From the human T2T-CHM13v2.0 reference genome, Homo sapiens, in assembly GCF_009914755.1 (NCBI RefSeq), contig NC_060929.1: a DNA stretch of 64,000 nucleotides; one strand, written 5' to 3'. Shown here one piece after another: positions 24,201-27,200 of this stretch. Within the stretch, counting starts at the first letter, position 1, and the number at the start of each line of letters is the position of its first letter. A model generated the notes under the pieces. It searched no databases, was not told the DNA's origin, and was given only the letters and a program-made list of their open reading frames with translations. The translations under genes were made by a program, and so were the position numbers.

Positions 24201-27200
24201 AATGATATTACTCCCAATATTGCAGAAGGTGTACACCTCTCTGTGATATTGTTCATAGTATCAAGAAGAAAAGAGGATGGTATTACTCCCAATATCGCAG
24301 GGGGTGTACACTTCCCGGTAATATTGTTTGTAATATTTAGGAAGGAGAGGATAATATTACTCTCAATATCGCAGGGGATGTACAATCCCCTGTGATATTG
24401 TTTTGTAATATCCAGGGTGGTAGAGGATAATATTACTCTGAATATCGCAGGGGGTATACACCCTCCCTGTGATATTGTTCTTAATATTATTGGAAGGAGA
24501 GTATGATATTACGCCCAATATCTCAGAATGTGTACACTTCCTGGAATGTTGGTATTACTATCATCTTCTTTTCCTGTGGATATTAAGAAAAATATCATAG
24601 AAGGGGTGTACACACCTTGGATATTATGAACAATATCATAGCGGGGTGTACACCCCCTGTGACAATATCATAAAATCCAGGGGGCAGAGGATGATATTAC
24701 TCGCAATAACGCAGGGGGTGTACACCCTCCTGTGATATTGTTCATAATATCCAGAAAGGGAGAAAATTATATTACTCCCAACATCACAGGGGGTGTACAT
24801 TCCCCTATGATACTGTGCGATCCCCCCACCCTGGGTATTACGAACCATATATCAGGGAAGAGTACACCCTTTTAGATATAATGCGAGAAGATTGATATTA
24901 CTCCCAATATCCCAGAATGTGTACACCCCCTTTGAGATATTGCTTCTAATATCCAGGAAGGGAGAAGATTATATTACTCCTAATATCGCAGGGTTGTACA
25001 CCACTGCTGTGACATTGTTTCTAATATACATGAAGGGAGAGTATGATATTACTCCCAATATCGCAGGGGGTGTACACCCTCCTTGTGATTTTGTTTCTAA
25101 TATCCAGAGGGGGGAGGGTAGGATATTGCTCCCAATATCACAGGGACTGTACACCACCAATGTGATATTGGTCTTAATATCTATAAGGAAAGAAGAAGAT
25201 ATTACTCCCAATAACCCAGAGGATGTAAACTTCCCCTGAGATATTGTTTCTAATATCCAAGGGGAAAGAGGATGATATTACTCCCAATATCGCAGGCAGT
25301 GTACACCTCCCAAAATAGCAGGGGGTATACACTCTCCCATGTTATTTTTCCAAATATCCAGGGGAATGAGAATGATATTACTCCCTATATCGAAGGGTGT
25401 GTACACCCCCCTGTGATATTGTTCCTAATATCCAGGGAAGGAGATAATAAAATTACTCCAAATATCGCAGGGGCTGTACACCCCTTCTGTGATATTGTTT
25501 CTCATATCCAGGGAGGAAGAAAATAACATTAGTCCTAATAACGCCAGAGGTGTACACCACCCCTGTGATATTGTTCCTAATATCCAGGATGAAAGAGGAT
25601 AATATTACTCCCAATATGTCGGGTGGTGTACACTCCTTCAATGATACTGTTCCTAATATCCAGGGTGGGAGAGGATGCTATTACTCCCAATATCGCAGAG
25701 GGTGTACAACCCGCTTGTGATATTGTTCTTAATATCCAGAAGGGGAGAGGATAATATTACTCCCCATATTGCAGGGCATGCACATGCCCCCTGTGATATA
25801 TTTTCTAATATCCAGGGAGGGAGAGAATGATATTACTCTGAATATCACAGCGGTTATACACCCCTCTTCTGATATTGTTCCTATTATCCAGAGGGAAAGA
25901 TGATGGCATTATGATCAATATCCCAAAAAGTGTATTTTGGGATATTGATCCTGTACTATTGTTCCCAATATAAGGGGGTAAGAGGATAATATTACTCCCA
26001 ATACCACAGGGAGTGTACACCCCCCCCGTGATATTGATCATAATATCCAGAGGAGAAGAAGATGATATTACTCTAAATATTGAAAGGGGTGTACACACCC
26101 CTGTGATATTGTCCCTAATATTGAGGTAAGGAGAGGAAGTTATTACTCCCAATATTGCAGAAGGTGTACACACCCCCGTGATATTGTTTCTAATTCCAGA
26201 TGGGAAGAGGATGATACTACTCCCAGTATCATAGAGGTTGTACACCCCGCTTGTGATATTGTTCCTAATATCCAGGGGGTGACAATGATATTACTGTCTG
26301 TATCCCAAAGGATGTACACACACCCTATGATACTGTTCCCAATATATAGTGAAGGAGAAGATGATATTACTTCCAAAATTGCATGGGGTGTACACCCCAT
26401 TTGTGATATTGTTTTTAATATCCAGTGGAAAAGAGGATGATATTACTCCCAATATCACAAGGAATGTACAACCCTCTTGTGATATTGTTTCTAACATATA
26501 GGGTGGGAGAGAATGATATTACTCCCAATATCGCAGGGAGTGTACAGCCCCTTGTGATATTCTTTCTAACATACAGGGGGGAAGAAGATGACATTACTCC
26601 CAATATCGTAGAATAGGTACACCCCTTCTGTGATATTGTTTCTAATATCAAGTGGGGGAGAGGATGACATTACTCCCTATATTGTTTCTAATGTTCAGGG
26701 GAAAGAGAATAATATGACTCCCTATATTGAAGAGGATGTACACCCCCCTGTGCTATTGTTTTTTATATCCAGAGAGGAAGATGATAAAATTACTCCAAAT
26801 ATCGCAGGGGCTGTACACCCCTCATGTGATATTGTTCCTAATATCTGGTGGGGGGGAAATAATAGTAATCTTAATAACGCAGGAGGTGTACCCCATGCCT
26901 GTGATATTGCTTCTTATATCCAGAAGGGGAGAGGATGCTATTACTCCCAACATCGCAGAGGGTATACAACCCTTTGTGATATTGTTCTTAATATCCAGGG
27001 GGGAAGGGATAATATTTCTCCCAGTATCACAGGGCATGTACACCCCTCCTGCGATATGTTTTCTAAAATTTAGGAAGGGAGAGGATGCTATTACGCCCAA
27101 TATCGTGGGGGTTTTACGCCCCTTTTGTGATATTGTTTCTATTAACTGGGGAGGGGGGAGATGATGGTATTACGATCAATATCCCCAAAAGTGTACACCC

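What the first reader, a model, noticed from the sequence alone, without database searches (positions are those of the whole stretch)
25913..25950. Arm-to-arm template switch caught in one monomer
Seen: GATCAATATCCCAAAA-AGTGTA-TTTTGGGATATTGATC is a perfect 16-bp inverted repeat. The paralogous monomer at 27174 (GATCAATATCCCCAAAAGTGTACACCCCCACTGTGATATTG) has the same idiosyncratic left arm but a normal right arm. Inference: the right arm was overwritten using the left as template (quasi-palindrome correction, an established mutation mechanism). This gives a neutral route to the compensatory changes.
Basis: partly seen in the sequence, partly recalled or inferred. Interest (0 to 1): 0.7.

Follow-up and report, generated by a model that had tools for sequence, protein, structure and literature searches.

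The report
Template-switch hairpin in a satellite monomer
One unit of an old human satellite repeat gained a perfect 16-base hairpin because a short stretch was copied backwards from the DNA next to it, which is a well-known kind of copying error and not a new mechanism.

Summary
Window 25913-25928 and 25935-25950 form a perfect 16-bp inverted repeat with loop AGTGTA. The 38-mer is unique in the genome, and no 16-bp arm appeared in 100 shuffles. Four paralogous monomers share the odd left arm and the same flanking monomers: 27174, 44999 and two at chr5:99.7 Mb. All four keep the standard right side, so the hairpin is derived.

The old right arm was not overwritten. It survives at 25951-25961. 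About 8-11 nt of the C-run were replaced by a 16-nt inverted copy of the left arm, a net gain of 8 nt. This is a short template-switch mutation of the published 3-2-1-4 type. It is not an in-register quasi-palindrome correction. The copy carries a change private to this left arm, so the template was local.

Zero arm mismatches against a private divergence of 0.169 date the event late on its branch, but not necessarily recently.

The wider claim is only partly supported. Among 146 monomers of the same family the arms show no covariation. Covariation appears only between subfamilies. A few other candidate arm-copy events exist in the window.

This is a clean new instance of a known mutation type. 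Primate orthologues and other human assemblies could not be searched.

The parts
25907..25989 (+). The affected monomer. It is 83 nt, against 75-76 nt for its neighbours.
   Evidence: HMM tiling of the array. This monomer scores 20.0 bits, against 40.0-78.5 for the 14 neighbours listed.
25913..25928 (+). Left arm, ancestral, and the template of the copy. It carries a private C-to-A change at 25925.
   Evidence: It is shared with the paralogues at 27174 and 44999 and with L004 and L005.
25929..25934 (+). Loop AGTGTA. It is the remnant of the family's central GTGTAC core.
   Evidence: The paralogues read GTGTACAC or a close variant here.
25935..25950 (+). Derived right arm: a 16-nt inverted copy of 25913-25928. 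It replaces about 8-11 nt of the C-run. The last 1-3 bases could be ancestral, so the copied tract is 13-16 nt.
   Evidence: Five-way alignment. The derived-cluster scan finds 12 derived residues inside one perfect reverse-complement arm. Tool pair I3.
25951..25961 (+). The old right arm, still present as CTGTACTATTG. It differs from the paralogues' CTGTGATATTG/CTGTGATATAG by GA to AC at 25955-25956.
27168..27242 (+). Paralogous monomer with the same left arm and an unaltered right side.
44993..45068 (+). Paralogous monomer with a one-mismatch left arm and an unaltered right side.
26030..26044 (+). A second perfect inverted match (15 nt, spacer 107) to 25908-25922, in the next monomer. Three private substitutions within 4 nt create it.
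   Evidence: (pair I4) and the alignment.

Best explanation
A single short-range template switch during DNA synthesis created the hairpin.

The steps, read on the + strand:
- The nascent strand was copied up to ...AAAAAGTGTA (25934).
- It left its template and copied the complement of the adjacent left arm backwards, from 25928 to 25913. This made TTTTGGGATATTGATC.
- It then returned to the original template just before CTGTG... In doing so it skipped about 8-11 nt of the C-run.

In the four-point notation this is order 3-2-1-4, the type that creates an inverted repeat.

The host is one monomer of an old, diverged ~76-bp satellite whose units are themselves quasi-palindromes. Each unit carries alternating GATATT/AATATC hexamers and a GTGTACAC core. 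This supplies many short complementary stretches for mispairing.

Shown:
- The derived state.
- Exact reverse complementarity to the local left arm.
- Retention of the old arm, and the net gain of 8 nt.

Inferred:
- That it was one event.
- That it happened at a replication fork rather than during break repair. I put about 60:40 on the fork.
- The exact switch points.

No function is implied. The hairpin is best read as a neutral mutational product.
For: 1. The arms are complementary at 16/16 positions with a 6-nt loop. No such repeat appeared in 100 dinucleotide shuffles.

2. Polarity. Four of four paralogues share the idiosyncratic left arm and are colinear over about 730 bp (pairwise identity 0.745-0.877). 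All four read GT(A/G)CACC-CCC..CTGTGATA where the focal monomer has the new arm. The 146-monomer family consensus reads the same way.

3. The template was local. The new arm reads TTTTGGG, the complement of this copy's private CCCAAAA. The paralogues have CCCCAAAA or CCTAAAAA. The 38-mer is unique in the genome.

4. One event explains 12 derived residues and the length change. In a scan of 82 derived clusters over the five lineages, perfect reverse-complement arms >=11 nt within 200 nt explained 3. Two of these are non-consensus, and both lie in this lineage. Reverse-only repeats explained 0 and complement-only repeats 0.

5. The event fits a published class. Type 3-2-1-4 (mirror 1-4-3-2) made up 31% of 794 high-confidence human-versus-chimp events. 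The authors required a copied fragment of >=14 bp for that set (PMC5453318 section 6).

6. Internal clock. The arms show 0 mismatches, whereas 5.4 substitutions would be expected in 32 nt at this lineage's private rate of 0.169 (112/664). The old arm shows 2 changes in 11 nt, as expected at that rate.
Against: - Polarity rests on paralogues that are only 75-78% identical to the focal block, not on orthologues.
- No microhomology is visible at the first switch in the present sequence. The primer end ...GTGTA would face A and G.
- The GA-to-AC change in the old arm is not explained by the event.
- The last 1-3 bases of the arm (..ATC) could be ancestral (L004 reads AATC there), so the copied tract may be 13-15 nt.
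- Sequence alone cannot separate a replication-fork switch from fold-back synthesis at a break.
- It also cannot separate a one-step route from a two-step route.
- Only one haplotype assembly was seen.
Confidence: 0.8

Rival explanations
1. The same product arose by fold-back (snap-back) synthesis during repair of a double-strand break in the C-run. The resected 3' end folded on itself, was extended along the left arm, and was then joined to the other end with loss of a few bases. This is polymerase-theta-type end joining.
For: The footprint is a small deletion plus a short inverted templated insertion right next to its template.
- Very short (mostly ~5-34 bp) templated inverted duplications made by fold-back at breaks are reported in yeast (PMC11724301).
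- Stem-loop extension primed by only two terminal base pairs is reported for Pol theta (PMC11292364).
For both papers I saw only the start of the abstract in the listing.
Against: The 3' end ...GTGTA has no two-base complement next to the first templated base (25928). Nothing else in the sequence speaks for a break. The published genome-wide survey of such clusters favours inter-strand switching at forks (PMC5453318 section 6).
Confidence: 0.3
2. A two-step route. A switch primed by the self-complementary core GTGTACAC first made a spacer-less perfect palindrome (...AAAAAGTGTACACTTTTT...). A central 4-nt deletion then stabilised it.
For: The ancestral core is an 8-nt perfect palindrome in 2 of the 4 paralogues (27174 and L004). 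This would give the microhomology that the one-step route lacks. That spacer-less palindromes are unstable and acquire central deletions is general knowledge; I recalled it and did not read it here.
Against: It needs one more event than the one-step route and leaves no separate trace.
Confidence: 0.15
3. Ectopic conversion from an inverted paralogue. The related array at chr5:99.7 Mb lies in the opposite orientation, and its + strand carries a similar TTTTGGGGATATTG tract.
For: L004 and L005 are on the minus strand relative to the window.
Against: The new arm matches the local left arm 16/16, including its private state. L004 would give GGGG and GTTC, and L005 differs more. No other copy of the 38-mer exists in the genome.
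Confidence: 0.03
4. Independent point mutations and indels, fixed because a hairpin is selected (for example as a small-RNA precursor or a protein-binding dyad).
For: An annotated miRNA (MIR5692C1) lies in the same array. The palindrome is kept between subfamilies.
Against: - It needs about 12 coordinated changes.
- The stem is only 16 bp with no extension into the flanks.
- Rfam gives no hit in the window.
- Arms within the family decay independently.
- The nearly invariant columns are almost all A or T, as GC-to-AT mutational decay would give.
Confidence: 0.02
5. An assembly or consensus artefact of the T2T haplotype.
For: Only one assembly was seen.
Against: The local repeats are only about 70-78% identical, so mis-assembly is unlikely. 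A 16-nt inverted tract is not a known consensus error; this is my judgement and was not tested.
Confidence: 0.02

Closest known systems
Short template-switch mutations, four-point model, type 3-2-1-4 / 1-4-3-2 (Loytynoja and Goldman 2017, PMC5453318; Walker et al. 2021, PMC7954356)
   Same: - A cluster of differences is explained by one reverse-complement copy of adjacent sequence.
- A new inverted repeat is created.
- The copied fragment reaches the authors' 14-bp confidence bar.
- Point 4 lies after point 1.
   Different: That survey masked repeats and low-complexity sequence; 48.5% of the alignment length was kept. Here polarity comes from paralogues inside and outside the array instead of a sister species.
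Classical quasi-palindrome correction (Ripley 1982, as described in PMC5453318; Ripley's paper itself was not read)
   Same: A pre-existing imperfect inverted repeat sits at the site: CAATATC/GATATTG plus the GTGTACAC core. The outcome is a perfect repeat.
   Different: - The old arm is not converted in place. It remains downstream.
- The axis shifts by 2 nt.
- The unit grows by 8 nt.
The in-register case is better matched by the second candidate at 26030-26044.
Template switching that creates and maintains RNA hairpins (Monttinen and Loytynoja 2022, PMC8794818; abstract and opening text seen)
   Same: A perfect stem is made in one step, which gives a non-selective route to multibase compensatory change.
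   Different: The host here is a non-coding satellite with no evidence of an RNA product at this monomer. Within the family I find no excess of compensatory change.
Fold-back templated inverted insertions at double-strand breaks (PMC11724301, PMC11292364; listing abstracts only)
   Same: A short inverted templated tract lies beside its template, together with a small deletion.
   Different: No terminal microhomology is visible, and there is no evidence of a break.

Membership tests
Short template-switch mutation (four-point model) | The derived tract is the exact reverse complement of nearby sequence | tested here: met
   16/16 positions, 6 nt away.
Short template-switch mutation (four-point model) | The ancestral state lacks the tract (polarised) | tested here: met
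   4 of 4 paralogues and the 146-monomer consensus lack it. Orthologous outgroups were not available.
Short template-switch mutation (four-point model) | Copied fragment of at least 14 bp for high confidence (PMC5453318) | tested here: met
   16 nt as read. It is 13-15 nt if the terminal ..ATC was ancestral, as in L004.
Short template-switch mutation (four-point model) | One event explains a cluster better than chance; non-complementary controls are empty | tested here: met
   12 derived residues lie in one arm. Reverse-only repeats explain 0 of 82 clusters and complement-only repeats 0 of 82.
Short template-switch mutation (four-point model) | An observed switch-point order (4 does not precede 1) | tested here: met
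   The order is 3-2-1-4, read from the alignment. This type is listed in PMC5453318 section 6.
Short template-switch mutation (four-point model) | The variant is real in independent reads or assemblies | not testable with these tools
   Only the one assembly is held.
Classical in-register quasi-palindrome correction | An imperfect inverted repeat pre-exists at the site | tested here: met
   The paralogues have CAATATC...GATATTG and the GTGTACAC core. Their folds are weak, at -4.1 and -3.4 kcal/mol.
Classical in-register quasi-palindrome correction | The old arm is converted in place, with no displaced second copy | tested here: not met
   The old arm persists at 25951-25961, the net change is +8 nt, and the axis moves by 2 nt.
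Fold-back templated insertion at a break | A small deletion with an adjacent inverted templated insertion of roughly 5-34 bp | tested here: met
   About 8-11 nt lost and 13-16 nt gained. The size range is from the PMC11724301 listing.
Fold-back templated insertion at a break | At least two terminal base pairs to prime the fold-back | tested here: inconclusive
   None is present in the current sequence. The ancestral GTGTACAC core could have primed, but then a central deletion is also needed.
SATR1-type interstitial satellite | A match to the curated family consensus | not testable with these tools
   No repeat library is on hand, and the name is recalled, not tested. Indirect leads only:
- The family is interstitial and dispersed.
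- SATR1 is called an interstitial satellite in the passage of 10.1101/2021.07.12.451456.
miRNA precursor hairpin | A long stem with a known family match | tested here: not met
   The stem is 16 bp only. Rfam gives 0 hits in the window at gathering score.

The most novel reading that the evidence does not exclude
Recurrent short template switching, not selection, keeps and remodels the dyad symmetry of this dispersed palindromic satellite. Founder monomers of new subfamilies acquire multibase 'compensatory' arm changes in one step and are then amplified, while established copies simply decay. Four observations fit this reading:
- The 21-nt segment 25908-25928 appears to have templated two separate inverted copies.
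- The monomer type's own left arm is itself an older inverted copy.
- One subfamily changed three adjacent pairs on both arms.
- Several other non-consensus perfect repeats sit in the same window.
If true, such arrays would be natural recorders of template-switch rate and spectrum in sequence that published surveys masked.
Probability: 0.2. Interest if true: 0.5.

Novelty: new member of a known kind. Interest (0 to 1): 0.25.

Why it matters
This is a clean, polarised example of a one-step mutation that builds a perfect 16-bp hairpin. It turned one of the least hairpin-prone monomers of the array into the third most stable of 146.

It lies in repeat sequence that the genome-wide surveys of this mutation type masked. 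It also shows that paralogues inside old satellite arrays can polarise such events.

The negative result matters as much. Within the family the arms decay independently, so the array's palindromes are inherited rather than actively maintained. The compensatory pattern is confined to a few changes at subfamily origin.

It does not change what is known about the mechanism.

Tried and rejected
- No primate or other human assembly is reachable with the tools.
- The chr7:7.19 Mb hit of the pattern search (L006, 3 mismatches) belongs to a different subfamily with different flanks. I did not use it as a paralogue.
- Beyond the ~730-bp core, the identity of the focal block to the others (68-73%) is not above the array's background, so I did not extend the polarised comparison.
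- My first cluster scan demanded that the flanks also match. It missed the focal event and was replaced by an arm-coverage scan.
- I looked for a source for the GA-to-AC change at 25955-25956 among direct and inverted k-mers within 250 nt and found none.
- Rfam search of the window gave 0 hits.
- Literature searches for this array, for SLC25A48 or MIR5692C1 repeats, and for template switching in SATR-type or T2T satellites found nothing on this locus or on this process in this satellite. The library is limited to open papers and preprints.
- The family name SATR1 could not be tested.

Full report
**What is there.**
The window from about 4 kb to 55 kb is one long, old tandem array of ~52-80-bp units in several subfamilies. 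An HMM built from window monomers tiles 522 units.

The main family has a 75-76-nt unit. Its core is a quasi-palindrome, AATATC(G/A)CAGGGGGTGTAC | ACCCCCCTGTGATATT. The hexamers GATATT and AATATC alternate four times per unit.

Copies are only about 70-76% alike within the window. Related arrays on chromosomes 3, 4, 6, 7 and 12 are similarly diverged: 119 matches are listed at 67-81% identity, with 8 of 313 first-look candidates scored. The name SATR1 comes to mind for this family, but I could not test it.

**The observation.**
At 25913-25950 the sequence is GATCAATATCCCAAAA-AGTGTA-TTTTGGGATATTGATC, a perfect 16-bp inverted repeat.
- The window holds 63 perfect inverted repeats with arms >=10 and loop <=30. 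Only 10 have arms >=13 and 3 have arms >=16.
- 100 dinucleotide shuffles gave none with arms >=16, and a mean of 0.01 with arms >=14.
- Most of the 63 are simply the family's consensus arms, AATATCACAG/CTGTGATATT. The focal pair has non-consensus sequence on both sides.
- Mirror repeats, as a control, reach 13 nt at most outside an (AC)n tract.
- The 38-mer is unique in the assembly at up to 3 mismatches.

**Polarity.**
A degenerate pattern for the odd left arm found five places in the genome: 27174 and 44999 in the window, two at chr5:99.71 Mb on the opposite strand (L004, L005), and one on chr7. The chr7 place has different flanks and belongs to another subfamily.

The four real paralogues and the focal block align colinearly over about 730 bp, or nine monomers. 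They share idiosyncrasies in the flanking units. Pairwise identity is 0.745-0.877.

All four read GT(A/G)CACC-CCC, then 1-4 variable bases, then CTGTGATA. The focal copy reads GTGTA-TTTTGGGATATTGATC-CTGTACTATTG. From this I conclude:
- About 8-11 nt of the C-run were replaced by 16 nt.
- The old right arm is still there at 25951-25961.
- The unit is 83 nt long instead of 75-76.
- The symmetry axis moved by 2 nt.

'Overwritten' is therefore not the right word.

**The source of the copy.**
The new arm reads TTTTGGG. This is the complement of this copy's private CCCAAAA, where three paralogues have CCCCAAAA and one has CCTAAAAA. The template was therefore the local left arm. It was not the inverted paralogous array at 99.7 Mb, which would have given GGGG and GTTC.

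**Mechanism.**
In the four-point description (PMC5453318 section 4) the points fall in the order 3-2-1-4.
- That type, with its mirror 1-4-3-2, creates an inverted repeat. It made up 31% of 794 high-confidence human-versus-chimp events.
- The authors kept only copied fragments of at least 14 bp for that set.
- They worked on the 48.5% of the alignment not masked as repeat (section 6).

My own scan took all clusters of at least two derived residues in the five lineages, 82 clusters in all.
- Three lie wholly inside a perfect reverse-complement arm of at least 11 nt within 200 nt.
- None lies inside a reverse-only or a complement-only repeat.
- Three lie inside direct repeats, all of consensus sequence.
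- Of the three reverse-complement cases, one is consensus sequence. The other two are both in the focal lineage.

I cannot tell a fork switch from fold-back synthesis at a break (listing abstracts of PMC11724301 and PMC11292364). The present sequence shows no microhomology at the first switch. The ancestral GTGTACAC core could have primed a switch, but that route then needs a central 4-nt deletion.

**Age.**
The focal lineage has 112 private substitutions at 664 informative sites, a rate of 0.169.
- If the repeat were as old as that branch, about 5.4 substitutions would have hit its 32 nt. There are none.
- The old arm has 2 changes in 11 nt, as expected at that rate.
- With a flat prior, the event lies in the last ~13% of the branch (median about 0.02 substitutions per site), with a 95% bound of about 0.09.

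The event is recent for this array. It is not necessarily recent on a human time scale.

**Effect.**
The focal monomer folds at -16.5 kcal/mol as single-stranded DNA. That is rank 3 of 146 family monomers, whose median is -8.25. The paralogue at 27174 is rank 121, at -5.5.

**The wider claim.**
I aligned all 146 plus-strand monomers found between 20.3 and 31.5 kb. Two of these overlap a neighbour because their ends were extrapolated. I then scored the 18 pairs of the canonical palindrome.
- Standard pairs form in 80.4% of cells, against 80.6 +/- 0.3% after shuffling partners (388 of 500 shuffles at least as high).
- Double changes occur in 39 cells, against 44.4 expected (422 of 500).
- Counting Watson-Crick pairs only gives 69.6% against 70.2% (901 of 1000).

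So within the family the arms decay independently. The nearly invariant columns are almost all A or T, which is what GC-to-AT mutational decay gives.

Across four subfamilies the picture differs. I used 92 monomers out of the 105 that passed a coverage filter. I left out 13 length outliers: ten units of ~62-65 nt and three of 88-94 nt.
- 82.2% of cells are paired, against 77.4 +/- 0.5% (0 of 500 shuffles).
- There are 91 double-change cells, against 53.1 (0 of 500).
- The covariation score is 0.276, against 0.076-0.155 for slid partners.
- Watson-Crick only gives 69.5% against 64.9% (0 of 1000).

The signal sits in a few pairs: 11-57, 16-52, 14-54, 15-53 and 22-49. One small subfamily has three adjacent pairs changed on both sides. 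These cells count sequences, not events, so the signal amounts to a handful of founder changes that were later amplified.

Template switching is a fair candidate for those changes, and the idea is in print (abstracts of PMC5453318 and PMC8794818). The data here do not show it, and they do not show an ongoing maintaining process.

**Other candidate events.**
Of the 10 perfect repeats with arms >=13 and loop <=30, I read three as consensus-level: 4197, 35661 and 50888. Seven carry non-consensus bases on both arms: 16781, 19428, 25913, 48974, 49366, 50159 and 50662 (with the unit consensuses).
- I checked 16781, 48974 and 49366 against neighbouring units.
- 48974 and 49366 look like arm-to-arm copies. 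16781 is messier.
- A 15-nt perfect match between 25908-25922 and 26030-26044 rests on three private substitutions within 4 nt of the next monomer.
- The monomer type's own left 16-mer, as in L004, is the exact reverse complement of the family's standard right-arm/spacer 16-mer. That 16-mer occurs 9 times exactly and 87 times with <=1 mismatch on the + strand. The forward form occurs only where the array is inverted. This points to an older inverted copy shared by all five paralogues.

**Verdict.**
The event is a new instance of a well-described mutation class, and its bearing on the array's compensatory pattern is plausible but unproven.

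Noticed in passing
window 25908-25922 with 26030-26044: A 15-nt perfect inverted match with a 107-nt spacer. The next monomer's right arm changed TCCC to ATCA: three private substitutions in 4 nt, where 4 of 4 paralogues keep (T/C)CCC. It became the exact complement of the same left segment that templated the focal arm. This is a better fit to in-register quasi-palindrome correction than the focal event.
   Followed up: partly
window 25907-25922, 27168-27183, 44993-45008; L004 and L005 (minus strand): The monomer type's left 16-mer, in its L004 form, is the exact reverse complement of the family's standard right-arm/spacer 16-mer. That 16-mer occurs 9 times exactly and 87 times with <=1 mismatch on the + strand. 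The forward form is otherwise seen only at 5009 and 24622, where the array runs inverted. This suggests an older inverted copy shared by all five paralogues.
   Followed up: partly
window 48974-49006: A 13-nt perfect inverted repeat with loop 7, in the spacer palindrome of another subfamily. The right arm differs from four neighbouring units by a cluster (an indel of 3 nt plus several substitutions). That cluster makes it complementary to the left arm, including the left arm's own T-to-C change.
   Followed up: partly
window 49366-49412 (MIR5692C1 at 49382-49472, minus strand): A 15-nt perfect repeat. The right arm gained two bases that pair with a bulge and a variant base of the left arm. The annotated mature product (49393-49414) lies on this derived arm. 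The right arm matches the left arm of a unit at 49745-49766 over 22 nt.
   Followed up: partly
window 50159-50232: The longest perfect inverted repeat of the window, with 24-nt arms and a 26-nt spacer. It sits where the array flips orientation; units between about 50.2 and 50.9 kb run reversed. It may be an inversion or fold-back junction.
   Followed up: no
window 16781-16816: A 15-nt perfect repeat on a non-canonical axis, in a unit that also lacks 14 nt of the core relative to its neighbours. Both arms differ from the consensus.
   Followed up: partly
window 50662-50706: A 16-nt perfect repeat in which both arms carry two adjacent non-consensus bases (GAAGG with CCTTC) where the subfamily unit has G and C runs.
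   Followed up: no
window 19400-19460 and 24500-24700: Short stretches where units run in the opposite orientation inside the plus-oriented array. They give 21-24-nt perfect inverted matches to nearby units.
   Followed up: no
window 31570-32620 and 34420-36130 against 15300-31500: Subfamilies keep the palindrome with different arm sequences. Covariation is seen only between subfamilies, not within the main family. One subfamily has three adjacent pairs changed on both arms.
   Followed up: yes
alignment A5 (window 20323-31541): The columns kept in at least 90% of 146 monomers are almost all A or T. G and C columns decay mostly by transitions. This fits mutational bias rather than constraint.
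   Followed up: partly
G000 chr5:99.706-99.714 Mb (L004, L005): A paralogous array 36.6 Mb away on the same chromosome, in the opposite orientation. Its blocks are 86-88% identical to the 44999 block and to each other, closer than the window's own internal copies are to one another.
   Followed up: partly
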